From a virus, in the IMG/VR virus record IMGVR_UViG_3300008120_000241, positions 1-64,000 of that record: a DNA stretch of 64,000 nucleotides, one strand, 5' to 3'. The notes under the pieces are model-generated. The model did no database searches, was not told the DNA's origin, and was given only the letters and a program-made list of their open reading frames with translations. This document shows positions 221 through 58,155 of this stretch, piece by piece (positions within the stretch are counted from its first letter, which is position 1; every line of letters begins with the position of its first letter). Both the position numbers and the translations under genes were made by a program.

Positions 221-589
221 ATGAATCTACAAGAAAACATAAGAAGAATATTAAAAGAAGAAACAGAAGGTATGTCACCACTAGAGCAGACAGTTGCTGA
301 TTTTATTAATATGAATCTATCTGAATATGATTTACCAGAAGACTTTGATAGAGTTGCCGTAGATATATTTGATAATGAATATGATAGAAAAGAGTGTGTA
401 GTGACCATATTATTTGAGAAACCATTTAATTTAAAAGATTCAGATAGAATGCATGATATAATGAATGAAATAAAAAAAGAAATCAAAAAATATTTTGGTG
501 ATACTTTTTGGTATATAAAATTAGGAACATCGACGGTAGATGTTTATAACAGTACCAAAGATTGGTACACCAAAAGAAAGAATAAATAA
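221..589 (+). CDS. Leader-A (MNLQENIRRILKEE) cargo protein, unknown function
   Basis: ORF with the repeated N-terminal leader. Confidence 0.8.
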   Translation: MNLQENIRRILKEETEGMSPLEQTVADFINMNLSEYDLPEDFDRVAVDIFDNEYDRKECVVTILFEKPFNLKDSDRMHDIMNEIKKEIKKYFGDTFWYIKLGTSTVDVYNSTKDWYTKRKNK

Positions 590-878
590 TGGAAGACATT
601 AAAATCCTTCACCTAAAAAGTAACGCACAAAAATTGGAAACTTGGGTTGCCATGTTAAATGGTGAAAAAAAATTAAATTCCTTGATGCTTGGGTTCATCA
701 CGACCATAGAAGAAAGGGAATCTACCGAATGTTGTGGGACACAAGGTGGGAATATGTTCAAGAAAATTATAAAGGGTGGATTGCCTTTGCCTGGTGTAAA
801 CCATCATCACTACCATTACTATTAGAAAAAGATTTCACAACCGGTGAAACTTGTACCTACGTTGAAAGAGAAATTTAA
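589..878 (+). pseudogene. GNAT-family acetyltransferase with a frame break at the A8 run (~665-672)
   Basis: After MEDIK...MLNGE the -1 frame reads KIKFLDAWVHHDHRRKGIYRMLWDTRWEYVQENYKGWIAFAWCKPSSLPLLLEKDF...EREI* (stop 876-878), containing the GNAT acetyl-CoA motif V-x-x-x-x-R-R-K-G-I. Confidence 0.7.
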
Positions 879-926
879 TCACAATTAATTTAGAAAAATC
901 AAATATTTTTTTGTATATTTACCATT

Positions 927-1196
927 ATGGTTAGTGGTACTATTTTAGAATATTTTGAAGATATAATGAGGGGTGGTTTCAGAGAGGATGTGCAAAAATA
1001 TTTAAGTTTTTTTAATGGTGATTGCGGACGTTTACTTATGACCGTCACAATTCCTTATGACTTACTTTCAAACATGAACAATAAACATTTTGATGATTAT
1101 ATGGTGCGGTTTACGAATTCAATAAATGAAAGAATGGTGAGGTATGGTTTTGAACTTAATAAAGATTACGTAATTGATGTAATAAGAACAGAATGA
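927..1196 (+). CDS. hypothetical protein (probable paralog of the next gene)
   Basis: C-terminal YGFELNKDYVI resembles SFGMRVNEDYKI of 1193..1456. Confidence 0.7.
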   Translation: MVSGTILEYFEDIMRGGFREDVQKYLSFFNGDCGRLLMTVTIPYDLLSNMNNKHFDDYMVRFTNSINERMVRYGFELNKDYVIDVIRTE

Positions 1197-1456
1197 ACCC
1201 AAAGTTAGAATATATCGAAGAATTGGTTAGAAATAATATTAGTGATGAACTTAAACATACATTAAACTTCACACTAAATGAAAATAATGTAGTACTAATC
1301 AATGTTAAATATGAAACATTAGATATGGTGCCTAGTGTATGGGGACAAATTATACGTAGAAGAATAGTTGAAACACTTTACTCATTTGGTATGAGAGTAA
1401 ATGAAGATTACAAAATAGAAACAGAAATATCATGGAAAAACACCTTACGACAATAG
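1193..1456 (+). CDS. hypothetical protein
   Basis: ATGA overlap with the upstream gene. Confidence 0.7.
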   Translation: MNPKLEYIEELVRNNISDELKHTLNFTLNENNVVLINVKYETLDMVPSVWGQIIRRRIVETLYSFGMRVNEDYKIETEISWKNTLRQ

Positions 1457-1845
1457 AATACATCAAAGACATACTTGAAGAAGATGATTTAGATATTACT
1501 TTTAAAAAAGGCAAATACGTCATTAAATTTATAATTGACGCTAAAAATAGCATGACTATGGATGCCATTGCAAAACTTAGAGGTATTGGTAAAAAAACTA
1601 TGACAGAATCAAAACTATTAACTTATTTTCCAAAGGAGTTATTTAAAATAGAATTGGAAACCATAAACAAACCAAAACCAAAACTAATGGTGATGGACTC
1701 GTTCAGTAGTGATGTTTACAAAAAGTTACTTGAACAACGTGTAATTCATAGACCAATAAACGTAAACACAACTGATACGGCATTGAATAATATTAATGGG
1801 TCTAATTATAGTACTACAGGAATAAATTTAAACCATCTAATTTAA
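1432..1845 (+). CDS. hypothetical protein
   Basis: ORF in operon-like run. Confidence 0.65.
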   Translation: MEKHLTTIEYIKDILEEDDLDITFKKGKYVIKFIIDAKNSMTMDAIAKLRGIGKKTMTESKLLTYFPKELFKIELETINKPKPKLMVMDSFSSDVYKKLLEQRVIHRPINVNTTDTALNNINGSNYSTTGINLNHLI

Positions 1846-1867
1846 AGTAGAACATATTTATAATAAT

Positions 1868-2824
1868 ATGCCATTAAAACAATCCATAAGAAAAATATTA
1901 AGGGAAGAAATCAACCCAAACAAACCAGACTTATACGAATTTGCCAAGTGGGGATTAACCGGTGAATATGAATATAGCGGATGTTGGGACGACAACGATT
2001 TGGATGGAGCGATTGAATGTGCGGTTGATGATTTTGAACAATTTTTAAATGAACCATACCCAACAGGGTTAGGTAATATACCAAAAAATCCAATTATATA
2101 CAGATTAATAAAACTAAATGAGATTAAAGATTTAAACAAAAACAATCTGGGAAAGAGTTGGTTCTCAAATCCAAATCAAATTAAGAATCCAGAGTTTTTT
2201 GATATGTTGGAATATTTAAAACCAGGACCAAACAATAAGGTATTTTTGATAAAAGGAAAAACAACAATTAATAACATTGATTTAAAAAGAACATTATGGG
2301 AAAGATCAACCCAATGGTGGGAAAATGAAATTGTAATTAAGGATGACACCAATATTGATATTTTGGACATAAAGGAATTAACAATGGATAAATACTTAAA
2401 GGAATCCAACAATAAGTTAAAGGAAAATGTCAATCCAATAATGGACTTAATTAATGAATTTGGTATAATGGCCGCAATGAAATTCACCGGGTTGACTTAT
2501 AAAGAAATAGAATCAAAAACAAATTTAACAAGAGATTACAAAATTCAATTCTTAAAAGATTTAATAGTTAGTTTATCTGACGATGAGGATGAAATATCAC
2601 TTGAATATTGGTTGGATCAACCAATCACTTATAAAATAGATGATGACGGTCAACATATACTTGAACGAATCCAGGTGGTTGATGATGAAGATTTAATATT
2701 AACAATTTATGTGTATGATATGGATGAATATGGTGAAATGAGGGATTTAAATTTTCTGTATAATATGGAGAATGAAGATATAACCGATGATGGATTGGAT
2801 ACTATAATTGAACATTTAATATGA
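1868..2824 (+). CDS. Leader-A cargo protein with putative R-S-E ADP-ribosyltransferase domain plus acidic C-terminal domain
   Basis: Leader MPLKQSIRKILREE; motifs IIYR / GKSWFS / WENEIV (R, S, ExE); TATTTAT upstream. Confidence 0.55.
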   Translation: MPLKQSIRKILREEINPNKPDLYEFAKWGLTGEYEYSGCWDDNDLDGAIECAVDDFEQFLNEPYPTGLGNIPKNPIIYRLIKLNEIKDLNKNNLGKSWFSNPNQIKNPEFFDMLEYLKPGPNNKVFLIKGKTTINNIDLKRTLWERSTQWWENEIVIKDDTNIDILDIKELTMDKYLKESNNKLKENVNPIMDLINEFGIMAAMKFTGLTYKEIESKTNLTRDYKIQFLKDLIVSLSDDEDEISLEYWLDQPITYKIDDDGQHILERIQVVDDEDLILTIYVYDMDEYGEMRDLNFLYNMENEDITDDGLDTIIEHLI

Positions 2825-3384
2825 ACTTAAAACAATCCATAAGAAGAATATTAAAGGAAGAAACGTCAATTAACCAAAAGGTTAAGGACATAATTTTAAA
2901 TGGAACTGATTTTGATGATTGGATTAAAGCGGTACAACTTCAATATGGGGATGTTGTCCCATTATATCACGCAACAACCGAACAGACATCAAAATTAATT
3001 GATAAGGAAGGATTCAAGTTAGTTGATGGAAAAAACTATAAGTCATTTTCAAACGAACCCATTTTATATTTCCAGATTGGAAAATCGGATTATGTGTCAA
3101 CAAACAGACCGGTATTATATAGATTGGATGTTCCGATTGAATTTTTATACAATGCCGAAATTGACAATGATGGTCCGGACATAAGTGATGAAGAACTTTT
3201 TAAATATGTGGATGAAACGGATTGGGATGAATTACCTTATGATATTAGGGACGCCATAATTTATTTTATATGGAATGATTTCAAACTTGACGGAACCGAA
3301 ATACTTATAAGTGATAGGTTTATGGATGATCCGAGTGAAGATATCTTCAAAGGGTTAAAACCGGTTAAAGTAAAGGACAATTAA
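2821..3384 (+). CDS. Leader-A cargo protein with putative ART-fold (HxT-type) domain
   Basis: Leader MNLKQSIRRILKEE; LYHATT...IDKEGF, LYF, VLYRLDVP pattern. Confidence 0.5.
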   Translation: MNLKQSIRRILKEETSINQKVKDIILNGTDFDDWIKAVQLQYGDVVPLYHATTEQTSKLIDKEGFKLVDGKNYKSFSNEPILYFQIGKSDYVSTNRPVLYRLDVPIEFLYNAEIDNDGPDISDEELFKYVDETDWDELPYDIRDAIIYFIWNDFKLDGTEILISDRFMDDPSEDIFKGLKPVKVKDN

Positions 3385-3385
3385 G

Positions 3386-3715: not shown

Positions 3716-3717
3716 AT

Positions 3718-4062
3718 ATGGGTTTACAAGAGAATATAATAAAAATATTAAAAGAGGATTTGAATAAAAAGGTTGAAAAAATGACCAAAATTGTTGGATT
3801 ATTCATTAATGAGTTATATCCAAATTTCAATGAGAATGATGTTAAAATTGATGTGTTTGATGATGATGTGAATTATATTGAAACATATTATGATCCGGTA
3901 ACACAATTCTTTTTTGCCAGATACGATGATAGACTGAGAGAATTAATCTTAAATACGGAAATATTGGAAACATTGGAAGGTTATTTTGGGGGTGATATGG
4001 AATATGTTATTGATTGGTTTAATAATGAATTTGGCACCAACGTGGAATATATAAGTAGTTAG
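3718..4062 (+). CDS. Leader-A-like (MGLQENIIKILKED) cargo protein
   Basis: Divergent leader; paralog of 3386..3715. Confidence 0.8.
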   Translation: MGLQENIIKILKEDLNKKVEKMTKIVGLFINELYPNFNENDVKIDVFDDDVNYIETYYDPVTQFFFARYDDRLRELILNTEILETLEGYFGGDMEYVIDWFNNEFGTNVEYISS

Positions 4063-4140: not shown

Positions 4141-4926
4141 ATGAACCCACAAGAAAAAATAAGAAGAATTTTAAGGGAAGAAGGATTTATACCCCTACCA
4201 ATCAGAAGAAGAGTAACTTCAAGTGATTTAGAAGAGGCATTTTATTATGCTTTAGAAACAAATGTCACATCTATGGATAACCCAAATTCTGTGATATACA
4301 AAGAAAAAAAACCATCATTATGGGTATTTTCAAAGTTCGTTATTGATGATATGGTTACTCTTTTAGAACAAGAATATTTTACTAATGACAACCGAATTTA
4401 TTTTAGTGATACCGAAGAGGATGACAAAACTTATCACAAAAAAATTAGACAACCACTACTTAGATATTATGGTAAAAGAATAAAAGAAAAGTACGATGAG
4501 ATTATGTCATCAAACGATGAAGAATTAATACAAGAATCCATAAGAAGAATTTTAAGGGAAGAAGTGGAACGAAATTATATTTTTGTTAGAACTGATGATT
4601 TTGATAATACTGGTACTGTAAGGGAATTACCTTACGATGGTATACATTGTTGGTGTATATATGAAGATGACTTTGACAAATACATAGATGAGCTTGAATT
4701 GTGGGGTGGAAGTAGAAAAAAAGTTAGGATAGTTGATGGTGAAAATTATAAAAAATACGCAACCAATTATAAAATGGCTCACGATTATGTTATGGGTGAT
4801 AGCGATGAAATTCCAAAATTAGAAAAATTTAATCCCGATGAACATATTATGAAATTTATAAAACAGGGTAAAAAATCTATGTTAAATTATGTTGCCAATA
4901 TGAAATATCAAATAATATTAATATGA
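4141..4926 (+). CDS. Two-module Leader-A protein (leader at the N-terminus and again internally at ~4528)
   Basis: MNPQEKIRRILREE ... LIQESIRRILREE; start moved to ATG 4141 behind TATTTAT. Confidence 0.8.
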   Translation: MNPQEKIRRILREEGFIPLPIRRRVTSSDLEEAFYYALETNVTSMDNPNSVIYKEKKPSLWVFSKFVIDDMVTLLEQEYFTNDNRIYFSDTEEDDKTYHKKIRQPLLRYYGKRIKEKYDEIMSSNDEELIQESIRRILREEVERNYIFVRTDDFDNTGTVRELPYDGIHCWCIYEDDFDKYIDELELWGGSRKKVRIVDGENYKKYATNYKMAHDYVMGDSDEIPKLEKFNPDEHIMKFIKQGKKSMLNYVANMKYQIILI

Positions 4927-5357
4927 ACCTACAAGAAAACATAAGAAGAATAATAAGGGAAGAATCAGATAAAGATATTTTAATTGATGGTTTGTATGAC
5001 CCAATATATGAAGAAAACGGGATTGTTCTATTTAATGAACCAAGACATTTAAAGATGTATTCTAAATTTGGCATTAAAAAATCAAATGTAATAAGTGGTA
5101 AAGAATTTAATAAAAAATATGTTGACTTTGATAATAAAAAACTTCACAAAGTGTTATACAAGGAAGGTATGACTTTGGGTGGTAATTTAGGTGAAGGTAA
5201 ATATTGGTGTTCCACTGAATATTGTTTAAGTGTTTATTTAGGGGAAACACACCAAAGCAGTGAATATTCCGAATACGTTAAAGGTGTGGTTGATTCTAAA
5301 TTGGGGGATGACCTAAAAATTTTGGTAAAGAAATATATTTCCGATGATTTATGGTAA
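4923..5357 (+). CDS. Leader-A cargo protein
   Basis: MNLQENIRRIIREE. Confidence 0.8.
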   Translation: MNLQENIRRIIREESDKDILIDGLYDPIYEENGIVLFNEPRHLKMYSKFGIKKSNVISGKEFNKKYVDFDNKKLHKVLYKEGMTLGGNLGEGKYWCSTEYCLSVYLGETHQSSEYSEYVKGVVDSKLGDDLKILVKKYISDDLW

Positions 5358-5371: not shown

Positions 5372-5887
5372 ATGAACCTACAAGAATCCATAAGAAGAAT
5401 ATTAAGGGAATATTTGGAAGAAGCCAGGTTGTCCGATCTTTTAAAGGTTACCGGTAATAAAAGTGAACTACATAAATACATTGAGAAAGAAAAATCCAAG
5501 GAGTTTGAAATAGATAGGGAATTACCGACACAATTAACATTAAAAAAAAGATATAACAACAAAAAGATAAAAGTTTATTTTAATTGGTTTGACAATTCAA
5601 AACATGATTTAAAAAAAAGGATTAAAGAAAGGACTAACTTTAAAACAATTACAGAATTTGCTGATGTTTTTAATCAAGTTATTAATTATGTTTTACCGGA
5701 TGAACTGGGTGTAAATATTAGTGAAAATGGAAGATACGCCATTAATTTAAGTGAATATAACATTACAATCATATTTTCAATTAATCTGGATGATTTTGAT
5801 AACCAAAAAGTAACAATTAACGTTATTACCATACTACCAAAAAGTCAAATTGACGAAAAAAATATAATACAATTTTTTGTATATTAG
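5372..5887 (+). CDS. Leader-A cargo protein, possible BECR/RelE-like RNase fold
   Basis: MNLQESIRRILREY; SKH-x4-RIKER and terminal VITIL pattern (weak). Confidence 0.6.
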   Translation: MNLQESIRRILREYLEEARLSDLLKVTGNKSELHKYIEKEKSKEFEIDRELPTQLTLKKRYNNKKIKVYFNWFDNSKHDLKKRIKERTNFKTITEFADVFNQVINYVLPDELGVNISENGRYAINLSEYNITIIFSINLDDFDNQKVTINVITILPKSQIDEKNIIQFFVY

Positions 5888-6225: not shown

Positions 6226-6574
6226 ATGAACCTACAAGAAAACATAAGAAGAATATTAAGGGAAGAACTAAATAATAGGGGTGATTGTAATATTATGTAT
6301 GTCCCAGAACAACTATCTAAATTATATAGGTTTTCAAATCTGTGGGATATGGTGGTTAATGAAATTGATGAATTGATAGAAGTTTCTCAATTAGAAAAAG
6401 AATTATTACCAAAAGACATTACAGTATATTCAGTTCAAGAAATTATACATAATAGATGGGCATCATAGATTATGTTATGATAGAATAAATAATAGAGATT
6501 CCTATGTTTATATCTTTGATAAAGATGACAGTCAAATTGTTGATTGTATATTTTACGGTATAGGAGATTGTTAA
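6226..6574 (+). pseudogene. Leader-A cargo gene with ParB/Srx-like domain, frame-broken around 6395-6450
   Basis: +1 frame reads KKLYIIDGHHRLCYDRINNRDSYVYIF...GIGDC* (stop 6572-6574); IDGHHR is the ParB/Srx signature. Confidence 0.7.
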
Positions 6575-6575
6575 T

Positions 6576-7046
6576 ATGAACCTACAAGAATCCATAAGAA
6601 GAATATTAAGGGAAGAGTCACTAAAACACTCTTTAATTGATGAGATTAAAACTGAGGGGTGGTTTAATGTTTCACAATATGTGGGTGGTGATGAAGAACT
6701 TAAAAAGATTACCGAAATACATAACTCATACCAGTTTATGAAATTGTTTTTAAATATAACCCCAAAACAAAGTGATGAGAGACCTGAAATGATATTATAT
6801 AAAAACGAAATGGGGGTCAATCTTTTTATTCATGTGTTTAATAATAATCTTAATGAGTATATGGTTTACTTCAATGGTGATATAACATATAGACCATTAC
6901 AATTTTTTTTAGAAACGAGACCATTAGGGGAAAGAAATGAGTTTTTAAACAAATGGTTAAGAAAAAATTACAAAATAAATGTAGCTGACCGCAACATAGT
7001 TTGGTTTGATCCCAAGGAGGACAGTTATTTAACGTATTTAAATTAA
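6576..7046 (+). CDS. Leader-A cargo protein, paralog of 7944..8390
   Basis: MNLQESIRRILREESLKHSLIDEIK. Confidence 0.8.
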   Translation: MNLQESIRRILREESLKHSLIDEIKTEGWFNVSQYVGGDEELKKITEIHNSYQFMKLFLNITPKQSDERPEMILYKNEMGVNLFIHVFNNNLNEYMVYFNGDITYRPLQFFLETRPLGERNEFLNKWLRKNYKINVADRNIVWFDPKEDSYLTYLN

Positions 7047-7048: not shown

Positions 7049-7942
7049 ATGAAGATAAAATCAATTAAGGTTATCAAAGGAAAAAATAGATGGAGCGATT
7101 CCAAAGATAAACTTATTCATATGGTTCTAGATTTAGGTGAATTTGAAGAAAAACCATCAAATAAAATAAAAGGGTTTTATGAAAGAATAAAAAAACATTT
7201 ACCTTCATTAAAAAGTCATAGATGTTCAGAAGGAAAACCAGGTGGATTTTTAAATAGAATTAAAGAAGGAACGTGGATGGGACACATTATAGAACATGTT
7301 GCTTTAGAATTACAGACATTGGCGGGTTATGATACAGGATGGGGAAGAACAAGAGGTGTTAAAGGTCAAAAAGGTGTATATAATGTAGTATTTAATTATG
7401 AAGATGAAGAATGTGGTAAAATGGCTGCAAAAGAGGCATATAACGTTGTTAAAGATATTATAAATGATAAAGACCCACAAATAGATAATATAGTTAAAAA
7501 ACTAAAACCAAAAAAACAAATTAGGGAATCCATAAGAAGAATATTAAACGAGGAGTCACTAAAACAAACCCTCTTGGACGAGATAATGAGATCGGGAATA
7601 AGAGACACGGCAAGTATAATGAGTGTGGATGTGAAAGAACTTTTAGATATGGTGGGGATTACAGGAACAAAAGAAGATATGATATTTCTTATTAAATCAA
7701 TAATGAAAAATGAGGCTAAAGAAAAATTTGATTACTGTAGTTATAATATTGTACCATCACCACATTATATTACATTATATGTTTATATACCTAAACCATT
7801 ACCCGAACACGAAGGTGTATGGGCTTATGATCAATCGGTACGTTATAGAGTGGAAGAATTAATAGGTCATTTGTTATCCAAATTAGGTGGTGGATTAATC
7901 AGAGGACATTATTTATATGTATATAATACAGGAGATTGTTAA
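7049..7942 (+). CDS. Cyanophycin synthetase N-terminal-like domain fused to an internal Leader-A module
   Basis: DLGEFEEKPS...HRC-x19-HIIEHVALELQTLAG..GWGRTR...GVYNVVFNY; then QIRESIRRILNEESLKQTLLDEI. Confidence 0.8.
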   Translation: MKIKSIKVIKGKNRWSDSKDKLIHMVLDLGEFEEKPSNKIKGFYERIKKHLPSLKSHRCSEGKPGGFLNRIKEGTWMGHIIEHVALELQTLAGYDTGWGRTRGVKGQKGVYNVVFNYEDEECGKMAAKEAYNVVKDIINDKDPQIDNIVKKLKPKKQIRESIRRILNEESLKQTLLDEIMRSGIRDTASIMSVDVKELLDMVGITGTKEDMIFLIKSIMKNEAKEKFDYCSYNIVPSPHYITLYVYIPKPLPEHEGVWAYDQSVRYRVEELIGHLLSKLGGGLIRGHYLYVYNTGDC

Positions 7943-7943: not shown

Positions 7944-8390
7944 ATGAATCTACAAGAAAACATAAGAAGAATATTAAGGGAAGAGTCACTAAAACAAACT
8001 TTAATTGATGAGGTTAAAAATAACGGTGTACAAGAAACCGCCGAACTTGTGGGAGGAATAAGTAATCTTATAGGTATATTAGAAATAGAAACACCAATGG
8101 ATTTCTTAAACATATATAATGATTTGGAAATTGTGGAAAGTGAAGAAAAACCAGATTATTATTTATTCAGACATAACAAAAATGATAACGTTATAATGTA
8201 CAACAAAAAAACTGATTTTATGTTATATAATCAAGATAAATTCTGGCCAGTATTTACGATTCACTTTAAAATGAACCACTATGACATTAATGATATGATT
8301 TCAAATTGGTTAAAAAATAAGTTCAACATAACGATACCTAGTACAAGAATAACAAACGTACCACAATCACAATATACAAGATTATCTTAA
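7944..8390 (+). CDS. Leader-A cargo protein, paralog of 6576..7046
   Basis: MNLQENIRRILREESLKQTLIDEVK. Confidence 0.8.
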   Translation: MNLQENIRRILREESLKQTLIDEVKNNGVQETAELVGGISNLIGILEIETPMDFLNIYNDLEIVESEEKPDYYLFRHNKNDNVIMYNKKTDFMLYNQDKFWPVFTIHFKMNHYDINDMISNWLKNKFNITIPSTRITNVPQSQYTRLS

Positions 8391-11821: not shown

Positions 11822-12145
11822 ATGAAAAGAATTATAAAATTAACTGAATCAGATTTAACAAGAATTGTTAGACGAGTTATTATGGAATCTACCGGTGAGA
11901 AATACGAAGTTAAACAGGTTAGCCCAACTTCAAGCGGTAAGTATAGTTTTAAATTAGTAATAACGGACCCATACAAAAAAACAACAAAGTCAATATCTGG
12001 AACATTTGATTGTGAATCATTAACAACAACTTTAGATGGAAAAATTGTAGATAACACTAATCTATATAATCAAGTAAATTTATCTTATATTAAACCATTT
12101 TTTTATGGTTATAATGATAACTATTGTAAAATGAAAAAGGACTAA
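11822..12145 (+). CDS. Leader-B cargo protein
   Basis: MKRIIKLTESDLTRIVRRVIMES. Confidence 0.8.
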   Translation: MKRIIKLTESDLTRIVRRVIMESTGEKYEVKQVSPTSSGKYSFKLVITDPYKKTTKSISGTFDCESLTTTLDGKIVDNTNLYNQVNLSYIKPFFYGYNDNYCKMKKD

Positions 12146-12476: not shown

Positions 12477-12749
12477 ATGAGCAAGATTATTAAATTAACG
12501 GAATCACAATTGGTAACCATTATTGAACGTGTTGTTAATGAGGCCGATTTTAGTGTTGAACCACAAATCCCTTCACAACCCAGAGAAAAAGACATTAAAG
12601 ATGTGTTCGGCGAAAAATATGGGGCTTATATTCCAATTGACGTTTTAAGATACATGAGAAAATCTCCGGCAAGGATTTTTAATCGTCTGTATGATATCTA
12701 TGGTGATATGGCGTATGAATATCTTGACCGAGCAAAAAATAAAAAATAA
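12477..12749 (+). CDS. Leader-B cargo protein
   Basis: MSKIIKLTESQLVTIIERVVNEA; TATTTAT upstream. Confidence 0.8.
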   Translation: MSKIIKLTESQLVTIIERVVNEADFSVEPQIPSQPREKDIKDVFGEKYGAYIPIDVLRYMRKSPARIFNRLYDIYGDMAYEYLDRAKNKK

Positions 12750-16662: not shown

Positions 16663-16974
16663 ATGATGAAATCAAGAAAAACAAAACTTATATCAGAAAC
16701 CAATACCTTACTTGAAAAAAGATATTTGGAAAAAAAGTTTTTAATGGAACAAGAAGATAAGGAAATTCCAAAACTTCAAGTTATGCCAATTAAAAGAAAA
16801 ATTGGAAAATATAAAATATCTTTGTTTCAAAAAAAGAAAAATGAAAATTTGACGGATATAATGACACCCGAACTTTTAAATAAATTAAATTTAAAAAAGG
16901 AATATGCCAATCAAGAATCTGCCATTTTGGATATTGAAAAAATTAATCCTTCAGACCTTGAAAATATAATTTAA
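16663..16974 (+). CDS. Leader-E-type protein (K.KLISETN..LEKRYL...LMEQ)
   Basis: TATTTAT upstream; leader resembles that of 56259..56708. Confidence 0.7.
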   Translation: MMKSRKTKLISETNTLLEKRYLEKKFLMEQEDKEIPKLQVMPIKRKIGKYKISLFQKKKNENLTDIMTPELLNKLNLKKEYANQESAILDIEKINPSDLENII

Positions 16975-50507: not shown

Positions 50508-53486
50508 ATGGCAGAAAATAAATTAACGGTTTGGCAGAGGTTAGGGAAAGTATTTGGTCCGACATCCACATTGGATCAACAATCACCTGTGTTTAAATTT
50601 GATAAGAAACAACTATTAAAAACAACAGATAAAAATGAGTTTGAAAGGGAGAAACTTGAAGCCCAACAAACCATGTATATTGGTAAACAATGGCAGAAGG
50701 TTGAGAGTAATTTATACCAACAAGCGGTGTACTATGAACCAACCAGAATGGCTTCATATTATGATTATGAGGCCATGGAGTACTCAATCCATGGGGACAC
50801 CAAAATTGCCACTCCTGATGGTTTTATGACCATAAAAGAGCTTTCAGACAAGGGTAGAGATTATGAATTTATAACATACGCTTATGACCATAATTTGAAA
50901 AAAGTAGTACCAGCAATCGCCAGAAATGCTCACTATACCAGAGATGAAATGGCTTATAAAATTACGTTTGATGATGGGTCACATATTATCGCAACTTATG
51001 GTCATAGGTTCTTAAAAAGGGATGGTGTTTTTTGTGAGGTTGAAAACCTTAAACCGGGGGATTCAATGATGCCATTTTATAGAAAATCTTTTTACAATAA
51101 TCAAAATTACCATTGGGTTTATACTTGTAATTCAAACGAGGGTCATCATGGTTGGATATCTGAACACAATTTAATTGCGGAGTGGTATTATAAAAGAAAA
51201 ATTAATGAAGACGAAGAAGTTCATCATAAAGATTTCAATGGTAAAAATAACAAACCGGAAAATTTACAAATAATGAATATTTCCGAACATAGAGCTTATC
51301 ATGCGAGATTAAACAACGAAAAATTATGGGCAAACCCCGAATATAGACAAAAAATGTCTGAAGTTGCTAGAAGAACCGGTAAGTATAGTTGGGAAGGGAA
51401 AAGAGCTAAAGAGAATAATCCGGCATATATAAAATTATCATTTGATTTGATTGTTGAAAAAGCAAGAGAACATAGAACGTTAATGGAAACTGCCACCTCA
51501 CTTGGTGTTTCATTTAGAAAAATACAGAATGAACTTAGATTCAATGGGTTTAAAAATTGGTTTGATTTTTTGGATGTTTATGGAATTGATAAAAGTAATA
51601 GTGATACTTACGGTGAAAAAAACAATAACTTCAAAAAAATCGCTTGGGATTTATTAATTGAAATTGCTAGACAAGAAAATAGTATTACAAATACGGCCAA
51701 AAGATTGAATGTAAGTAGAAATAAAATTTTAAAAACAATAAAAGAAGGGGGATTTAATAATTGGATTACATTTTTGGAATCATATGGTATTGAAAAATCA
51801 AAACACCACCACCCAAAAAATGAAGAACCAGTTATTAATCACAAAATAGTATCAATTGAACCATATGGTGTTGTACCAGTTTATGACTTAACTGTGCCGG
51901 GTTATAAGAACTTCGCTACAGATACCATTTTCTCACACAATACACCTGAGATCTCTGCCGCTCTTGATATTTACTCTGAAGAATCCACCACTCCTGACCA
52001 AGACGGACACATTTTAAAAGTCTACTCTGAATCAAAAAGAATTAAACAAGTATTGGTTGATTTGTTTGTAAATAGACTTGATATAAACACCAATTTACCG
52101 ATGTGGACAAGAAACACTTGTAAATTTGGCGACAATTTCACATATTTAAAGTTAGACCCAGAAAAAGGGGTTGTTGGGTGTCAACAATTACCAAATATCC
52201 AAATTGAAAGATTGGAAAAGGGAATGAGATTTCAACCGGACAAATATTCACAAGAAATGGAAAACGATGCTTTGAAATTTGTTGGGAAAGAAAAAAATAT
52301 GGAGTTCAATACGTGGGAAATTGCCCACTTTAGAATACTTGGAGATGACCGAAAATTACCTTATGGGACATCTATGTTGGAGAAGGCTAGACGTATATGG
52401 AAACAGCTCCTTTTATCGGAAGATGCGATGATGATTTACCGGGTATCAAGAGCACCAGAAAGAAGGGTATTTAAAGTATTTGTCGGAAATATGGACGACA
52501 AAGATGTTGATTCATATGTACAGCGTGTAGCAAACAAATTTAAAAGGGATCAGATTGCTGACCCCAAAACTGGAAATGTGGATATGAGATACAATCAATT
52601 GGCCGTAGATCAAGATTACTTTATCCCGGTTAGAGACCCTTCCCAAACCAATCCAATTGAAACATTGCCGGGTGGTACAAACTTAGCCGAAATTGCTGAT
52701 ATTGAATATATCCAAAAGAAACTGGTAACTGCCCTTAGAATACCAAAGGCGTATTTAGGTTTTGAAGAAGCAGTAGGTAATGGACAAAACTTATCTTTAC
52801 TTGATATTAGATTTGCAAGAACAATCAACAAAATTCAAAAATCAATGTTGGCCGAACTTAATAAGATTGCCATTATTCATTTATTTTTATTAGGGTTTGA
52901 AGATGAACTAACAAACTTTACGTTGGGGTTACACAATCCATCAAAACAATCCGAACTTCTTTCATTGGAATTGTGGAAAGAAAAAATTGAATTATACAAA
53001 AATGCGGTAGCTGAAATCGCAAATTCGGTTGCACCAACCTCAGCTTCTTGGGCTAAAAAGAATATTCTAGGTTTCTCAGATGAGGAGATCAGATTGGATT
53101 TACAACAACAACGAATTGAAAGGGCTGTTGCAGCTGAACTTGCTAAAACACCTGAAGTCATTACAAAAACTGGATTGTTTGATAATATTGATCAATTATA
53201 TGGTAAAAAACCAGGTGAACCGGCAGGTGAAGCACCAGAAGGTGGAGAAGAACCTGGAGGAATGCCACCAATGGGTGGAGGATCTGAACTAGGAGGACCA
53301 CCCCCACCACCGGGACCAGAACCAGGAGGTGAAGTAGGAGTAACACCAGAATCAACCAAGAAAAATGATTTAAATTTAATTCTGGAAGATAACTTATATT
53401 ATGGTAAAACCTCTCTTGATTTATCAAAGGGTAGATTAACCATTAATGAAATTGATGACAAATTAAAAGATTTATTGGATAAGTGA
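50508..53486 (+). CDS. Portal protein (T4 gp20-like) with intein
   Basis: YEAMEY|...|TPEISAALD, YGTSMLE.ARR.WKQL.L.EDAM.IYR..RAPERRVF, EDYF-like QDYFIP, IETLPG. Confidence 0.95.
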   Translation: MAENKLTVWQRLGKVFGPTSTLDQQSPVFKFDKKQLLKTTDKNEFEREKLEAQQTMYIGKQWQKVESNLYQQAVYYEPTRMASYYDYEAMEYSIHGDTKIATPDGFMTIKELSDKGRDYEFITYAYDHNLKKVVPAIARNAHYTRDEMAYKITFDDGSHIIATYGHRFLKRDGVFCEVENLKPGDSMMPFYRKSFYNNQNYHWVYTCNSNEGHHGWISEHNLIAEWYYKRKINEDEEVHHKDFNGKNNKPENLQIMNISEHRAYHARLNNEKLWANPEYRQKMSEVARRTGKYSWEGKRAKENNPAYIKLSFDLIVEKAREHRTLMETATSLGVSFRKIQNELRFNGFKNWFDFLDVYGIDKSNSDTYGEKNNNFKKIAWDLLIEIARQENSITNTAKRLNVSRNKILKTIKEGGFNNWITFLESYGIEKSKHHHPKNEEPVINHKIVSIEPYGVVPVYDLTVPGYKNFATDTIFSHNTPEISAALDIYSEESTTPDQDGHILKVYSESKRIKQVLVDLFVNRLDINTNLPMWTRNTCKFGDNFTYLKLDPEKGVVGCQQLPNIQIERLEKGMRFQPDKYSQEMENDALKFVGKEKNMEFNTWEIAHFRILGDDRKLPYGTSMLEKARRIWKQLLLSEDAMMIYRVSRAPERRVFKVFVGNMDDKDVDSYVQRVANKFKRDQIADPKTGNVDMRYNQLAVDQDYFIPVRDPSQTNPIETLPGGTNLAEIADIEYIQKKLVTALRIPKAYLGFEEAVGNGQNLSLLDIRFARTINKIQKSMLAELNKIAIIHLFLLGFEDELTNFTLGLHNPSKQSELLSLELWKEKIELYKNAVAEIANSVAPTSASWAKKNILGFSDEEIRLDLQQQRIERAVAAELAKTPEVITKTGLFDNIDQLYGKKPGEPAGEAPEGGEEPGGMPPMGGGSELGGPPPPPGPEPGGEVGVTPESTKKNDLNLILEDNLYYGKTSLDLSKGRLTINEIDDKLKDLLDK
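50784..51941 (+). mobile_element. 386-aa intein (Ser1...His-Asn/Thr+1) carrying an HNH homing endonuclease
   Basis: SIHGDTKI (block A), ATYGH (B), VHHKDFNGKNNKPENL (HNH), VYDLTV (F), FSHN|T (G). Confidence 0.92.
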
Positions 53487-53509: not shown

Positions 53510-54238
53510 ATGAATACATTTGGTAAAATAAAAACAATGTTGGAGGAAGCGTCAGTTGTTTCTTATAAAAAGAATGAATTTTCTAAATATATGACCGTTT
53601 TTAAAAATATGGTTTTGGAAAATAAAGATATCTGTGAACTATATTATATCTATGACGATCTCTCAACAAATAAAGGTCTGGATAGGGATATCGCTGATGA
53701 TTACATCAATGAAAATGTTGAATATTCAAAAGTGTTGGTTTCTGAAAATGAAAAAACATTAAATAAACTATCAAACTGGTTGGAGAATATCGTTGAGTCA
53801 ACTTCAAACAACTACAAAAATATTGATACATTAATTTATAATGATTCAATCAAAAACTTGGAGAAAGTTTTGGAATCCAAAAAACAAATTAAAAATGTTT
53901 TAATTAAAGAGTCTGTTAAACTTGAAAATAAAGAGACAGTAAATATGCCGTTACAAACAATGGTAAAAATGTATGAGTCCACTTTAAAAAGTAATATTAA
54001 CTTAAATGAAAATGAGATTAAAGAAATTTCAGAATTAAAAAGTTTAAGTAAAAATGAAATTGAAAATGAAATCTCAGAATTAAAAGAATCTATTATTTCA
54101 AAATTAAAGGTCACATTAAACGAATCAAAGGATGGTGAATTGAATTCAACGATCAATGACACCATTTCCAAAATTTCAGATACAGAAGTTGACCACTACA
54201 ATCTTTATAAATTAAGAAAATTAAATTCCGACTTATGA
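53510..54238 (+). CDS. head-module hypothetical protein
   Basis: TATTTAT upstream; follows the portal gene. Confidence 0.8.
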   Translation: MNTFGKIKTMLEEASVVSYKKNEFSKYMTVFKNMVLENKDICELYYIYDDLSTNKGLDRDIADDYINENVEYSKVLVSENEKTLNKLSNWLENIVESTSNNYKNIDTLIYNDSIKNLEKVLESKKQIKNVLIKESVKLENKETVNMPLQTMVKMYESTLKSNINLNENEIKEISELKSLSKNEIENEISELKESIISKLKVTLNESKDGELNSTINDTISKISDTEVDHYNLYKLRKLNSDL

Positions 54239-55234: not shown

Positions 55235-55939
55235 ATGAAAATATTAGGACCAAACGATACGGGTAAGGGGATTCTTGTGGAATGGGATGCTGGAACTATC
55301 AATCCAAATGATACCAGAAATAATCTAGTGATAAAAGAATCTTACGGACAACTTGACCATTCAAAACCTTTTGTGTTTTATGCCACACTTCAAAAATATG
55401 GTGTACCAAATAGAAACGGAAGAATTTACCCTGAGAAAATATTAAAAAGGGAAGCTGAGAAATACAAAGATATGATTAATCGTGGAATGTCAATTTCAGA
55501 ACTTAATCACCCAGAATCATCACTAATTGATCTAGATAGGGTGGCTCATCTTATAACTGATGTATGGTGGGAAGATAATGTATTGATGGGAAAAATTAAA
55601 TTATTAACAACACCCGGATTTCACGAGAGAGGAATTGTATCATCAAAAGGTGATGTTGCCGCTAATATGATGAGACAAGGTGTAACAATGGGGGTATCAT
55701 CAAGAGGTGTTGGTTCTTTGGTTAAAAAAGGGGAACAAAATGAAGTACAAGAAGATTTTGAATTAATTTGTTTTGATTTGGTTTCTTCACCATCCACACC
55801 TGGCGCTTACCTTTATTTAAATCAAGAGGATAGACCAAAATACGAAGAAAAATTATCAGAACAACAAAATATTGATTCAAATTCATTTTCCAAATCAGTT
55901 GACTTAATGAAAAGATTATCCGATTATTTAGGAAAGTAA
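55235..55939 (+). CDS. Prohead core protease (T4 gp21-like)
   Basis: NRNGRIYP, ELNHP, GVSSRGVGS, FDLVSSPS. Confidence 0.95.
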   Translation: MKILGPNDTGKGILVEWDAGTINPNDTRNNLVIKESYGQLDHSKPFVFYATLQKYGVPNRNGRIYPEKILKREAEKYKDMINRGMSISELNHPESSLIDLDRVAHLITDVWWEDNVLMGKIKLLTTPGFHERGIVSSKGDVAANMMRQGVTMGVSSRGVGSLVKKGEQNEVQEDFELICFDLVSSPSTPGAYLYLNQEDRPKYEEKLSEQQNIDSNSFSKSVDLMKRLSDYLGK

Positions 55940-55950: not shown

Positions 55951-56160
55951 ATGGATGAAAAGTATTTTGTAGCAAGAGTAACCACTGATATGGTGGATGA
56001 GAACTCAGGGAAAGTAAAAAAAATGAAAGAAGAAAAGTTGGTTAGAGGTTTCTCACCAACAGATGTTGAAGCGAAGGTGACTAAACTTTATGAATCTTAT
56101 ACAATGGATTGGAGAATTACGGCCATTGTTGAGAGTAAAATTGACGAAGTTATTGAATAA
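55951..56160 (+). CDS. DUF4494-like protein (Bacteroidota family)
   Basis: YF...V.....ENSGK.KK.KE..LV...S.T..EA......I..I.ESKI.EV. Confidence 0.65.
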   Translation: MDEKYFVARVTTDMVDENSGKVKKMKEEKLVRGFSPTDVEAKVTKLYESYTMDWRITAIVESKIDEVIE

Positions 56161-56258
56161 TTTCAACTAAAAATTAAATTGTTTTAAAGGAGGTATTGCA
56201 AAATATCTCCTTTTTTTGTGTCTTTTTTTTACTATATATTTATAATGTAAAATATATT

Positions 56259-56708
56259 ATGAATAAAAGTTTCAGTAAAATTAGACATATCCAAGAATCA
56301 AATCAAAGACTGGAAAAAAGGTTACTTAAAGAAGATGATGAATTGAAAGATGAAAAACTACAACATATCATTGATGTTGATACCGAACTAGACAATGACC
56401 CCGCTTATAAGGAGTATGAAAAAATATATTCCATAAATAAAATAAAAAAAATGGTTTCAGATCAAATGGGGATTAATATATCGGATATGAGTGATGAAGA
56501 ATCACAAGGATTAATTGATATGTTCACATCTTTTATGGATATAAGTAAAGAAGGTAAGGAGAAAATGACTCGTGAAAAACTTCTTGAGCGTAAGGATAGT
56601 GTGATTAATCTTGTTATTGAAATTATTGAAATTGCGGTTGAAAATGATGATTTTGAAATGGTTACAAAATTACGAAACTATATTGAACTTTTAGAAGATT
56701 ATAATTAA
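56259..56708 (+). CDS. Leader-E (MNKSFSKIRHIQESNQRLEKRLLKED) cargo protein with UVR-like tail
   Basis: TATTTAT upstream; AVENDDFEMVTKLRN. Confidence 0.75.
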   Translation: MNKSFSKIRHIQESNQRLEKRLLKEDDELKDEKLQHIIDVDTELDNDPAYKEYEKIYSINKIKKMVSDQMGINISDMSDEESQGLIDMFTSFMDISKEGKEKMTREKLLERKDSVINLVIEIIEIAVENDDFEMVTKLRNYIELLEDYN

Positions 56709-56724
56709 AAAAAACATAAAAATT

Positions 56725-57765
56725 ATGAAAAAAATAGTAAGATTAACAGAATCGGATTTAACAAGAATAATTAAACGCGTTATTTCCGAACAAACTCAAG
56801 GTGAAAGTGGATTTATCCAAACAATAGTTGATAAATATAACATTTCAGATGAGTTGAGAAATGAAATTATAAATACTATTAAAAATTCTGAGTGTAAAAA
56901 TATTACGTTTGAAAAACTTAAAATGGGTGATGGATTGGCCTTAGGTGATAAGTTAATTTTAACCCCAAGGACATTAGAGAACACTTTGGGTAGATTCTTA
57001 TTTATTTTATTTCACGAATTGGCACACCAATACCAATTTAAAAAATATGGAATGGAAAAAATGCTTGAATTATATAGTGATGAAATGGATTTAAAAGAAG
57101 CCGCACAATTTATGAAACAAGTTGAAAGTGTGGCGGATGAATTTGCTGTAAGAAAATTAAAAAACCTAGAAAGAAAAGGATTAATTACACCATCAAGATC
57201 CGATATGTTTAAAGGTTATGACGGTATTTCGTTAGAAAGATTGGAAATAATGATTGATATGTTTAGAAATCAATTAAGGAAAAGTAACATTACTGGCGCT
57301 AAAAATATTAGTGAGTTTTTATACAATATGGTTAAAATTGAACAAACAAACCCACAAGTAAATTCTGAAAAACAAAAACCTTCTGAAATCACACCAACTG
57401 AAATAAAAAAAGAAATGAATAAAGAAAATAGTACAATCAGTGCCGATGAAGTATATTATGAAATTCCAAAAGGTATAAAAAAAGTTGTTGGTAATTTAGA
57501 TGCTTCGTCAATGGAAGATTTTAATGATGTTGAAGTTATAGATGGTAATTTAACTGTTAATAGTGATAAAATCAAATCACTACAAAATATTAAAACTATA
57601 AATGGTAAACTTTGGGTTTATGGTAACAATTTTGAAGACTTTGGTAATTTAAAAACGGTAAAAGGGGATGTAACATTGACTAAAAATACACCATTATTGG
57701 ATATGTATACTGAAGATGAAATTAAAGGAATGATTAATATTGGAGGAAACTTACAAATAAAATAA
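56725..57765 (+). CDS. Leader-B cargo: HExxH zinc metallopeptidase (ImmA/IrrE-like) plus short beta-solenoid repeats
   Basis: LFHELAHQYQ...ESVADEFA; KKVVGNL/EVIDGNL/KTINGKL/KTVKGDV repeats. Confidence 0.7.
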   Translation: MKKIVRLTESDLTRIIKRVISEQTQGESGFIQTIVDKYNISDELRNEIINTIKNSECKNITFEKLKMGDGLALGDKLILTPRTLENTLGRFLFILFHELAHQYQFKKYGMEKMLELYSDEMDLKEAAQFMKQVESVADEFAVRKLKNLERKGLITPSRSDMFKGYDGISLERLEIMIDMFRNQLRKSNITGAKNISEFLYNMVKIEQTNPQVNSEKQKPSEITPTEIKKEMNKENSTISADEVYYEIPKGIKKVVGNLDASSMEDFNDVEVIDGNLTVNSDKIKSLQNIKTINGKLWVYGNNFEDFGNLKTVKGDVTLTKNTPLLDMYTEDEIKGMINIGGNLQIK

Positions 57766-57777
57766 TTAAATAATATT

Positions 57778-58155
57778 ATGAAAAAAGTAATTAAATTAAC
57801 AGAATCGGATTTAACTCGTATTGTTAAACGAGTAATCCAGGAAGTAAACGATGAATTTGACGATGATTCAGTTATTGACAATAATTTCAATCAAGAAGAA
57901 TATGATGAATTATTGGACCAAGCGAGGGAATTTTTATGTCGTGAAATTGGTTTAGAAGAAGATGAGGTTTACAATATGAGTGATGACCAAATTATTGGTG
58001 AAATTAAATATTATGATAAAGGTTTATATCGTAGATTAGAAGAACTGAAATATAGTAAACCTGTTGATTTAGATGAACCATACGATTCAATTGGTGGGTA
58101 TTCAGTAAATGATTTGAGAAGAACTTTTAAAAATTATAAATACGACAAAAAATAA
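57778..58155 (+). CDS. Leader-B cargo protein
   Basis: MKKVIKLTESDLTRIVKRVIQEV. Confidence 0.8.
   Translation: MKKVIKLTESDLTRIVKRVIQEVNDEFDDDSVIDNNFNQEEYDELLDQAREFLCREIGLEEDEVYNMSDDQIIGEIKYYDKGLYRRLEELKYSKPVDLDEPYDSIGGYSVNDLRRTFKNYKYDKK

What the first reader, a model, noticed from the sequence alone, without database searches (positions are those of the whole stretch)
221..58155. Modular 'address tag + cargo' system: ~30 unrelated genes share protease-cleavable N-terminal leaders, probably capsid-loading signals
Seen: unrelated proteins begin with a few stereotyped 14-28 aa amphipathic leaders. A is MNLQE(N/S)IRRIL(R/K)EE (12 copies, 221-7990). B is MKKIVRLTESDLTRIVKRVIxE (11325, 11822, 12477, 20821, 37223, 41073, 56725, 57778). 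C is MKI(I/L)ITExQYxKLxE (13307, 21824). D is NEIxRIKxLM..xE-like (19358, 22969, 25805, 26239, 27890). E is KxxxIxExNxxLEKR (16663, 56259). All end in [ILV]-x-E, and most sit in units behind a TATTTAT box, whereas genes behind host-type TAnnTTTG boxes lack them. Three leader genes sit between the protease and scaffold genes. Established: T4 gp21 cleaves after Glu in (I/L)-x-E, and T4 internal proteins and Alt enter the prohead with a short N-terminal peptide that gp21 removes. The capsid protein here has LINE60|A, like gp23 E65|A. Inference: the leaders are portable capsid-targeting propeptides that let the phage load a large, exchangeable payload of enzymes into the head for injection. I know of no description of this at such scale or as DNA-level cassettes.
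Basis: partly seen in the sequence, partly recalled or inferred. Interest (0 to 1): 0.92.

Follow-up and report, generated by a model that had tools for sequence, protein, structure and literature searches.

The report
Shared N-terminal address tags, jumbo phage
About a third of the genes in this piece of an uncultured freshwater jumbo phage start with one of four short, interchangeable peptide tags that end in the cutting motif of the phage's own T4-type head protease; they most likely load a large, fast-changing set of proteins into the virion, but no experiment has tested this.

Summary
HMMs find 24 leader copies here (A 12, two of them internal; B 8; C 2; D 2), plus 2 of type E; triplet shuffles give about 0. 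The contig is about 26% of a ~300-kb 'bS21 phage' of freshwater Bacteroidota (Chen et al. 2022). Complete relatives carry about 35 tagged genes each. A profile of leader B hits 8,240 protein clusters (50% identity) in metagenomes, but only one short, phage-like contig in 596 Gb of prokaryote genomes.

New results:
- The leaders form two superfamilies (MNLQE..: A and D; MKKIIRLTES..: B and C).
- Conservation stops at a near-invariant Glu in a hydrophobic-hydrophobic-x-Glu motif. The same motif ends the capsid propeptide (LINE|A) and T4 propeptides.
- Homologous cargos carry different leader types.
- Leader genes sit behind the TATTTAT box that also precedes the protease, scaffold and portal genes, and never behind host-type promoters.
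- Every near-complete relative with its head module on the contig has an S77 protease.

This fits a T4-style capsid-targeting and cleavage system on a much larger scale (confidence about 0.55). Packaging and cleavage are untested. Most cargos are unknown proteins, not shown enzymes.

The scan noted the same leader B on another genome (e1-5727838) and similar tags in other phage lineages.

The parts
221..589 (+). leader A gene (MNLQENIRRILKEE + 108-aa cargo)
   Evidence: A model E = 9e-12
1868..2824 (+). leader A gene, diverged leader MPLKQSIRKILREE; TATTTAT at -13
2821..3384 (+). leader A gene, coupled to 1868-2824
3718..4062 (+). leader A gene; a cargo homologue elsewhere carries a B-type leader
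4141..4926 (+). leader A - cargo - internal leader A (4522-4563) - cargo; the second cargo has a homologue with a D leader
4923..5357 (+). leader A gene
5372..5887 (+). leader A gene
6226..6468 (+). leader A gene behind a terminator and TATTTAT (-14)
6576..7046 (+). leader A gene; cargo of the 'SLK..VGG' family, which elsewhere carries A, B or C leaders
7049..7942 (+). cyanophycin-synthetase-like N domain + internal leader A (7514-7555) + SLK-family cargo
7944..8390 (+). leader A gene, SLK-family cargo. AlphaFold model pLDDT 91.5; the leader is the first part of a long N-terminal helix
11325..11675 (+). leader B gene, TATTTAT at -21
11822..12145 (+). leader B gene, TATTTAT at -22
12477..12749 (+). 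leader B gene (variant MSKIIKLTESQL..), TATTTAT at -13
13307..14089 (+). leader C gene (MKIIITEEQYKKLFE), TATTTAT at -13
16663..16974 (+). leader E gene (..ISETNTLLEKR..), TATTTAT at -16
20821..21087 (+). leader B gene, short variant MKNLTEQDITRIVQKIINE
21824..22375 (+). leader C gene; cargo homologues elsewhere carry a B leader, with the junction right after the Glu
22364..22969 (-). leader D gene (MLLNEIIRIKSLMNLNE) with a PAP2 phosphatase-like cargo
25805..26236 (+). leader D gene (weak, E = 2.5e-4)
26239..27867 (+). loose D-like N-terminus, not detected by the D model; cargo has a PG_binding_1 domain
27890..31144 (+). loose D-like N-terminus ending ..KILSE|A, 1084 aa, TATTTAT at -12; membership unproven
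37223..37756 (+). leader B gene, TATTTAT at -19
41073..41576 (+). leader B gene, TATTTAT at -26
50508..53486 (+). T4-type portal (gp20) interrupted by an intein with an HNH domain
53510..54238 (+). conserved head-module protein with its own N-terminal helix; in three of the four relatives compared this ends in hydrophobic-hydrophobic-x-Glu|Ser. TATTTAT at -21
55235..55939 (+). prohead protease, Peptidase_S77, 32% identical to T4 gp21 with the ELNHP and GVSSRG motifs aligned. TATTTAT at -21, conserved in 15 of 16 relatives
56259..56708 (+). leader E gene inside the head module, TATTTAT at -22
56725..57765 (+). leader B gene inside the head module. The cargo has an HExxH (HELAH) domain and a Recep_L-like domain; homologues elsewhere carry A leaders
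57778..58155 (+). leader B gene inside the head module, very acidic cargo (pI 4.2)
58339..59718 (+). acidic scaffold-like protein with a conserved ..LV(K/R)E|SL motif
59755..61575 (+). T4 gp23-type major capsid protein; the propeptide junction LINE60|A61 is invariant in 6 of 6 clade members

Best explanation
The leaders are portable virion-targeting propeptides of the T4 capsid-targeting-sequence (CTS) type. Late in infection, TATTTAT-driven transcripts produce about 35 tagged proteins per genome. The N-terminal strand-and-helix tag (dialects A/D and B/C) would dock them onto the assembling prohead core of scaffold and protease. The S77 prohead protease would then cut after the invariant Glu of the hydrophobic-hydrophobic-x-Glu motif and free the mature cargo inside the head, to be delivered with the DNA. 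Fused 'leader-cargo-leader-cargo' proteins would be cut into separate cargos. Shown here: the tags, their modularity and interchangeability, the motif and its sharp boundary, the protease, the shared promoter box, and the restriction to phage sequence. Inferred: docking, cleavage, the location of the cargo in the virion, and injection.
For: 1. The protease is Peptidase_S77, 32% identical to T4 gp21. The portal and capsid proteins are gp20 and gp23 types.
2. In 128 distinct B leaders the Glu at position 23 is kept in 127. The residue before it is free. Information content falls from above 3 bits to about 0.4 bits right after it.
3. A ends ..ILRE|E and D ends ..MMG-h-h-x-E. 65% of C leaders have h-x-E at the expected place, against 16% at control positions.
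4. The same motif closes the capsid propeptide (LINE|A, 6 of 6 relatives), sits in the scaffold (LVKE|S) and near the protease N-terminus (IKE|S).
5. T4 propeptides read from the T4 record end FIAE, LLRE, LFDE and FLTE. gp21 cuts after L/I-x-E, and the 10-residue CTS is sufficient for packaging (PMC9026906).
6. B shows synonymous variation close to genome codon usage, including Arg encoded by both AGA and CGN codons, so selection acts on the peptide.
7. Homologous cargos carry different leader types in 10 of 74 multi-member cargo clusters. All six type pairs occur, and the terminal Glu aligns with Glu in 34 of 58 alignments that cover both.
8. TATTTAT at -15 to -25 precedes the protease (15 of 16), p53510 (4 of 4) and, further upstream, the scaffold gene (5 of 5). 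It also precedes 68% of 120 B genes against 22% of control ORFs. No leader gene in the window has a host-type promoter box.
9. 20 of 27 leader-bearing records and 9 of 10 near-complete ones have S77.
10. Only one real hit was found in 596 Gb of prokaryote genomes.
11. Leader genes of types B, C and E are inserted in the head module in 3 of 6 genomes compared.
12. Cargos are depleted in h-h-x-E (observed/expected 0.89) while untagged proteins are enriched (1.18).
Against: No virion proteome, no N-terminal sequence and no RNA data exist for this clade. Most leader genes lie in accessory islands, and their presence in the head module is not conserved. A third of C leaders, and some D leaders, lack the Glu motif at the expected place. 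The leaders are 14-23 residues long and far more conserved than the 10-residue T4 CTS, with no detectable homology to it. Eight of about a dozen annotated cargos are envelope-type domains (LysM, PG_binding_1, NlpE, PAP2, CarboxypepD_reg), which is not what T4 internal proteins look like. Hydrophobic-x-Glu is a common pattern in any amphipathic helix. In the one cargo modelled, the leader continues into the first helix of the cargo rather than being a free peptide. About 35 different head cargos per genome would be more than in any described T4-type phage.
Confidence: 0.55

Rival explanations
1. The tag attaches proteins to the virion, but not as a cleaved internal-head signal. It could be an uncleaved anchor that fixes decoration or accessory proteins to the capsid surface, neck or tail, or that recruits them to another assembly intermediate.
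For: Annotated cargos include peptidoglycan-binding and Ig-like surface-type domains without Sec signals. Truly secreted proteins of the phage have classical signal peptides. Expression appears to be late. The leader forms a strand plus helix that continues into the cargo in the model.
Against: Conservation ends sharply at an invariant Glu with a free residue before it, and this matches the capsid propeptide junction. Cargos are depleted in the motif. Dozens of different proteins would compete for the same surface site.
Confidence: 0.17
2. The tag is a docking helix for a partner unrelated to the virion, for example the phage ClpC-like unfoldase at 42097-44639, a chaperone, a host target or a membrane. 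It would mark a class of late accessory proteins for regulation, localisation or timed degradation.
For: Most tagged genes lie in accessory islands far from the structural genes. Cargos are mostly unknown, small and fast-evolving. The leader is longer and better conserved than a protease site requires.
Against: Nothing links the tag to ClpC or any other partner. This reading does not explain the match of the motif to the gp21-type site, the shared head-gene promoter box, or the repeated insertion of leader genes in the head module.
Confidence: 0.15
3. The repeat acts mainly at the nucleic-acid level. It could be a recombination cassette that shuffles genes, or a conserved translation-initiation region read by ribosomes carrying the phage's bS21, with the peptide being incidental.
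For: Superfamily I leaders keep codons that are rare in the genome: AAC (26% genome-wide), CTA (7%) and ATA (34%), in about 75-95% of copies. A also keeps AGG. Leader A genes lie in tandem arrays. The clade encodes bS21 (PMC9723584).
Against: Leader B varies freely at synonymous sites while the peptide is invariant. In-frame internal copies keep the peptide. Different leader peptides replace one another on the same cargo. Nucleotide conservation in A and D can result from frequent recombination between copies and is compatible with a peptide function.
Confidence: 0.06

Closest known systems
Phage T4 capsid-targeting sequence (CTS) of internal proteins IPI, IPII and IPIII, and the propeptides of Alt and gp24, removed by prohead protease gp21
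   Same: Both are N-terminal, short and helical, end in hydrophobic-x-Glu, and are shared by otherwise unrelated proteins. The phage has a gp21-family (S77) protease and gp20, gp22-like and gp23 head genes. The cargo set is variable between relatives. ipII and ipIII share an identical leader in T4 (PMC3012670, PMC9026906).
   Different: There is no sequence homology to the T4 CTS. The leaders are 14-23 residues against 10. There are four leader dialects in two superfamilies. About 35 tagged genes occur per genome against about 4-6 in T4. Thousands of cargo families are seen in metagenomes. Many fused double-leader proteins exist. Cargos include envelope-binding domains. Packaging and cleavage are not demonstrated.
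Head ejection and inner-body proteins of giant phages phiKZ, 201phi2-1 and SPN3US, processed by gp21-like proteases (PMC10052503, PMC7411985, PMC9026906)
   Same: These are jumbo phages with tens of head proteins. Many of these are cut after Glu by a diverged gp21 homologue, packaged and ejected.
   Different: In those phages the propeptides are long and protein-specific, and the site is (S/A/G)-x-E. No common, swappable leader has been reported for them (author's knowledge of the literature).
Encapsulin cargo-loading peptides
   Same: A short portable peptide directs unrelated cargo proteins into an HK97-fold shell.
   Different: Encapsulin peptides are usually C-terminal, bind the shell protein directly, are not cleaved, and usually serve one or a few cargos. 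This comparison rests on established knowledge and was not tested here.
Small 'MKKSQL..IIKE' leader family in the cultured Flavobacterium phage vB_FspM_immuto
   Same: It is the closest cultured relative (capsid protein 42% identical, S77 protease). Four proteins share an N-terminal MKKSQLxxIIKE-like helix, and one more has a D-like ..RMQKLAGIITE. One of these genes lies between the portal and protease genes.
   Different: Only 4-5 genes are involved. The A and B profiles do not match this phage. Its virion proteome is not known to me.

Membership tests
T4-type capsid-targeting propeptide (CTS) system | The tag is at the extreme N-terminus of the precursor | tested here: met
   Met directly precedes the motif in 54 of 64 A copies and lies 5-7 residues before it in 148 of 149 B copies. 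Two A copies in the window and many B copies elsewhere are internal, in fused proteins.
T4-type capsid-targeting propeptide (CTS) system | The tag ends in the cleavage motif of the prohead protease (L/I-x-E in T4) | tested here: met
   B: Glu in 127 of 128, preceded by V/I, I/L/M and a free residue. A ends ILRE. D mostly ends h-h-x-E. C has it in 65%.
T4-type capsid-targeting propeptide (CTS) system | The phage encodes a gp21-family serine prohead protease | tested here: met
   PF03420, E = 1.6e-22, and 32% identity to T4 gp21. Present in 9 of 10 near-complete leader-bearing genomes.
T4-type capsid-targeting propeptide (CTS) system | The same tag is found on unrelated, variable cargo proteins | tested here: met
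   167 cargos fall into 106 BLAST clusters, and 525 cargos into 272 clusters. Pfam domains are rare and diverse.
T4-type capsid-targeting propeptide (CTS) system | Sequence homology to the T4 CTS (MKTYQEFIAE) | tested here: not met
   The T4 leaders read from the record share only the terminal h-x-E pattern. gp24 MAKINELLRE resembles the ..ILRE end of leader A, but this is a resemblance, not detectable homology.
T4-type capsid-targeting propeptide (CTS) system | Tagged proteins are physically present in the head | not testable with these tools
   No cultured member and no proteome. All hits are metagenomic hypothetical proteins.
T4-type capsid-targeting propeptide (CTS) system | The leader is removed in the mature virion | not testable with these tools
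   Only indirect evidence: a sharp conservation boundary, cargo homology that starts just after the Glu, and motif depletion in cargos.
T4-type capsid-targeting propeptide (CTS) system | Expression together with the head genes | tested here: inconclusive
   Leader genes share the TATTTAT box with the protease, scaffold and portal genes, but the box has not been shown to be a late promoter and no RNA run holds the phage.

The most novel reading that the evidence does not exclude
Freshwater bS21 jumbo phages run a general protein-addressing system with four interchangeable dialects. It would load roughly a tenth of their genes' products (about 35 proteins per genome, and thousands of cargo families across the clade) into the capsid for co-injection. 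Cargos include peptidoglycan-binding modules, an ADP-ribosyltransferase-like domain and a metalloprotease-like protein. If so, the leader would be a sequence marker for finding thousands of unknown injected host-takeover and anti-defence proteins, and a natural packaging tag that could be engineered for Bacteroidota phages.
Probability: 0.45. Interest if true: 0.85.

Novelty: new variant of a known kind. Interest (0 to 1): 0.72.

Why it matters
If the tags load proteins into the capsid, this is by far the largest such cargo system known. It would show that T4's 10-residue CTS trick has been scaled up into a modular addressing system in abundant lake phages of Bacteroidota. The leader profile alone retrieves more than 8,000 protein families of unknown function that would then be candidates for injected effectors such as anti-defence, host-takeover and cell-wall-acting proteins. 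The idea can be tested directly by virion mass spectrometry and by a protease assay with leader fusions. Even if the capsid reading is wrong, a phage-only tag carried by about 10% of a jumbo phage's genes, and swapped between cargos, needs an explanation.

Tried and rejected
- tblastn of 25-26-residue A, B and D leaders against 50,697 GenBank phage records found no usable match, so no cultured carrier of these exact leaders was found.
- Pfam on 20 window leader proteins gave only a cyanophycin-synthetase N domain. The ART-like reading of 1868-2824 and 2821-3384 got no support from Pfam, from BLAST against an A-leader, HGT-containing protein (L157:7419-7901) picked as the possible carrier of the ART-PolyVal hit, or from the Atlas.
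- A literature search for the peptide strings gave 0 papers. The bS21-phage paper does not use the words 'motif' or 'promoter' in its main text and does not describe the leaders.
- No RNA holder is listed for the phage, so expression timing could not be checked and read laying was not used.
- A word-based homologue search on the leader region returned only hypothetical proteins.
- The idea that leader genes are a conserved part of the head module was rejected. The slot between protease and scaffold is empty in 4 of 5 relatives.
- The idea that a conserved gene next to the capsid gene with a leader-like N-terminus is a gp24-type vertex protein was rejected. It is a Lys-rich repeat protein with an internal B leader, and PHROGs gave no function.
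- A fold search of the well-modelled SLK-family cargo found nothing in PDB and only uncharacterised uncultured-phage proteins in BFVD.
- The two actinobacterial genome hits to the B pattern are chance internal matches in 71% GC DNA.

Full report
WHAT THE WINDOW IS. The window is 64 kb of a 76.8-kb viral contig with about 30% GC. It encodes a T4 gp20-type portal interrupted by an intein, a Peptidase_S77 (gp21-type) prohead protease, an acidic scaffold-like protein, a gp23-type capsid protein and a large terminase. A bS21 gene lies on the opposite strand inside the head module at 54480-54668. This arrangement, and relatives of 257-322 kb, place the contig in the 'bS21 phages' of freshwater Bacteroidota described by Chen et al. 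2022 (PMC9723584). CheckV rates the contig as about 26% of a genome. Near-identical DNA is held by lake and freshwater metagenomes from 13 studies. The closest cultured relative is Flavobacterium phage vB_FspM_immuto, with a capsid protein 42% identical.

THE OBSERVATION.
- The fuzzy search finds 12 A, 7 B and 2 C copies, against 0.05, 0 and 0.05 in triplet shuffles.
- With profile models the window has A 12, B 8, C 2 and D 2, plus two E copies.
- Two A copies are internal. One lies at 4522 in a leader-cargo-leader-cargo protein. The other lies at 7514, behind a cyanophycin-synthetase-like N domain.
- Three of the five claimed D members (19358, 26239, 27890) are only loose look-alikes.
- Cargos are mostly unrelated, except for one family shared by 6576, the C-terminal half of 7049-7942 and 7944.

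HOW FAR IT REACHES. Degenerate DNA patterns for the B and A leaders hit more than 117 and 47 IMG/VR loci respectively, often on the same 100-320-kb contigs.
- In those loci the motif is N-terminal in 54 of 64 (A) and 148 of 149 (B) cases.
- The 167 downstream cargos fall into 106 clusters.
- A 32-position profile of leader B finds 8,240 cluster representatives (50% identity) at E <= 0.001 among 1.84 billion proteins. Many have a second, internal copy.
- The same DNA pattern finds only three places in 596 Gb of prokaryote genomes. One is a true leader on a 3.3-kb, 31% GC contig binned with a Bacteroidetes MAG. The other two are chance matches in 71% GC actinobacteria.
- Complete relatives hold 7-17 B and 3-13 A genes.
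- The 304-kb genome G015 holds about 35 tagged genes (A 8, B 17, C 7, D 4), mostly in accessory islands.
- No paper contains the peptide strings, and Pfam has no model for them.

ANATOMY OF THE LEADERS. The four main types form two superfamilies.
- Superfamily I starts MNLQE-x-I-x-RI. It continues ..RRILRE|E in type A, or ..K-x-MMG-h-h-x-E| in type D.
- Superfamily II starts MKK-I-I-R-LTES. It continues ..DLTRIVKRVI-x-E| in type B, or is shortened to MKIIITESQY-x-x-L-h-x-E| in type C.
- In 128 distinct B leaders the final Glu is kept in 127, the residue before it is free, and information content drops to background immediately afterwards.
- Leader B varies at synonymous sites roughly as the genome does, including Arg written as AGA, CGA or CGT, so the peptide is what is selected.
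- Superfamily I additionally keeps rare codons: AAC, CTA and ATA, and AGG in type A. This points to frequent recombination between copies or to an extra nucleotide-level constraint.

MODULARITY. Homologous cargos carry different leaders.
- The SLK family occurs with A, B and C leaders.
- The cargo of 56725 (B here) has A leaders elsewhere. The cargo of 21824 (C here) has B leaders elsewhere. The second cargo of 4141-4926 (A here) has a D leader elsewhere.
- Ten of 74 multi-member cargo clusters mix leader types, and all six type pairs occur.
- In 34 of 58 alignments that cover both leaders, the terminal Glu aligns with the terminal Glu.
- The leader types therefore appear functionally equivalent, and the module ends at the Glu.

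LINK TO HEAD MATURATION.
- The protease aligns with T4 gp21 through the ELNHP and GVSSRG motifs.
- The capsid propeptide ends LINE|A in all six clade members compared, while the residues after it vary. The scaffold keeps LV(K/R)E|S, and the protease keeps h-x-E|S near residue 35.
- T4's own leaders, read from its record, are MKTYQEFIAE (ipII and ipIII, identical), MAKINELLRE (gp24) and MELITELFDE (alt). gp23 has ..FLTE|A.
- gp21 cuts after L/I-x-E, and the 10-residue CTS suffices to package foreign proteins (PMC9026906).
- Cargos are depleted in h-h-x-E relative to shuffles (0.89), whereas untagged proteins are enriched (1.18). This is suggestive only, because helix content may differ between the two sets.

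EXPRESSION CLASS.
- TATTTAT lies 15-25 nt upstream of the protease start in 15 of 16 relatives and upstream of p53510 in 4 of 4. It lies 28-48 nt upstream of the scaffold gene in 5 of 5.
- It is the most enriched 7-mer upstream of B genes: 68% of 120, peaking at -19 to -25, against 22% of control ORFs.
- In the window, 16 of 29 leader genes have it against 10 of 52 others. No leader gene has a host-type TAnnTTTG box, against 9 of 52 others.
- Most of the remaining leader genes are tightly coupled to an upstream TATTTAT-headed gene (reading).
- Chen et al. report that structural genes of this clade are transcribed together late. That the box is the late promoter is an inference.

WHAT DOES NOT FIT NEATLY.
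- Leader genes lie in the head module in only 3 of 6 genomes, and in different slots.
- A third of C leaders lack the motif.
- Only about a dozen of more than 200 cargos have Pfam domains. Most of those are envelope-type: LysM, PG_binding_1, NlpE, PAP2 and CarboxypepD_reg. There is also one ART-PolyVal, one GNAT and one HExxH protein. These proteins lack Sec signals, while the phage's truly secreted proteins have them. This favours delivery by the virion or release at lysis, but not specifically from inside the head.
- In the one cargo modelled with confidence (pLDDT 91.5), the leader is the start of a long helix that runs on into the cargo.
- No fold match gave a function.

VERDICT. The best explanation is a T4-CTS-like system of virion targeting and cleavage on an unprecedented scale (about 0.55). 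Three rivals remain open: an uncleaved virion-attachment tag (0.17), a docking tag for a non-virion partner (0.15), and a mainly nucleic-acid-level element (0.06). It works like the T4 CTS, but it is not homologous to it, and the two defining biochemical features, packaging and cleavage, could not be tested.

A CULTURABLE TEST SYSTEM. The cultured phage immuto has a small sister family (MKKSQL..IIKE) of four proteins, one of them encoded between the portal and protease genes. It also has one D-like leader. This phage could be used for the experiments listed under next steps.

EARLIER NOTES FROM THE SCAN. The scan's earlier notes record the same B leader on another genome and analogous tags in other phage lineages. 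I treated these as leads only.

Noticed in passing
window 54480-54668 (-): A small reverse-strand gene encodes a ribosomal protein bS21-like product inside the head module, as described for the published bS21 phage clade (PMC9723584).
   Followed up: partly
window 221-8390, and relatives: Superfamily I leaders (A and D) keep codons that are rare in these genomes (AAC 26%, CTA 7%, ATA 34% genome-wide; AGG 10%, in type A) in about 65-95% of copies (75-95% for all but CTA), although the cargos are unrelated. This suggests gene conversion between copies or an RNA/DNA-level constraint on top of the peptide.
   Followed up: partly
window, many intergenic sites (e.g. 55214, 53489, 11304, 37204): Two promoter-like classes alternate at fine scale. 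TATTTAT lies 11-26 nt before starts of head genes and leader genes. Host-type TAnnTTTG lies 12-13 nt before starts of other genes. TATTTAT upstream of the protease is conserved in 15 of 16 relatives.
   Followed up: partly
window 5911-6205: Inside the leader-A array, an untagged gene has a host-type promoter box and a strong terminator hairpin. TATTTAT and the next leader gene (6226) follow directly.
   Followed up: no
window 50508-53486: The portal gene carries an intein with an HNH endonuclease domain (Intein_splicing at residues 107-478, HNH_3 at 220-262).
   Followed up: no
window 42097-44639 (-): A ClpC-like ATPase is encoded as two ORFs. I did not examine it.
   Followed up: no
window 48738-50466: The large terminase matches are spread over two overlapping ORFs (48738-49472 and 49447-50466). 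This could be a frameshift, a programmed shift or a split gene.
   Followed up: no
window 56725-57765: The B-tagged protein in the head module has an HExxH motif (HELAH) in a domain weakly similar to M48 peptidases, and a C-terminal Recep_L/LRR-like domain.
   Followed up: partly
L202:2736-3449 (+) and L202:4406-4834 (-), i.e. contig 66736-67449 and 68406-68834: Two genes conserved across the clade next to the capsid and baseplate region begin with leader-like helices (MDIKKIIEEVLNE, MELDRIIKKVLLE). In the 304-kb relative, the orthologue of the first also has an internal B leader.
   Followed up: partly
Flavobacterium phage vB_FspM_immuto MW353176.1, starts at about 102250, 102836, 113144, 123311, and an ORF in the frame beginning near 111.6 kb: This cultured relative has a small family of proteins starting MKKSQLxxIIKE and one D-like ..RMQKLAGIITE leader. 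The gene at 123311 lies between the portal and protease genes.
   Followed up: partly
   Followed up: no
proteins P0009, P0033 (metagenomic): Some double-leader proteins carry a glycine-zipper-like hydrophobic segment between the two leaders, so some cargos may be membrane-active.
   Followed up: no
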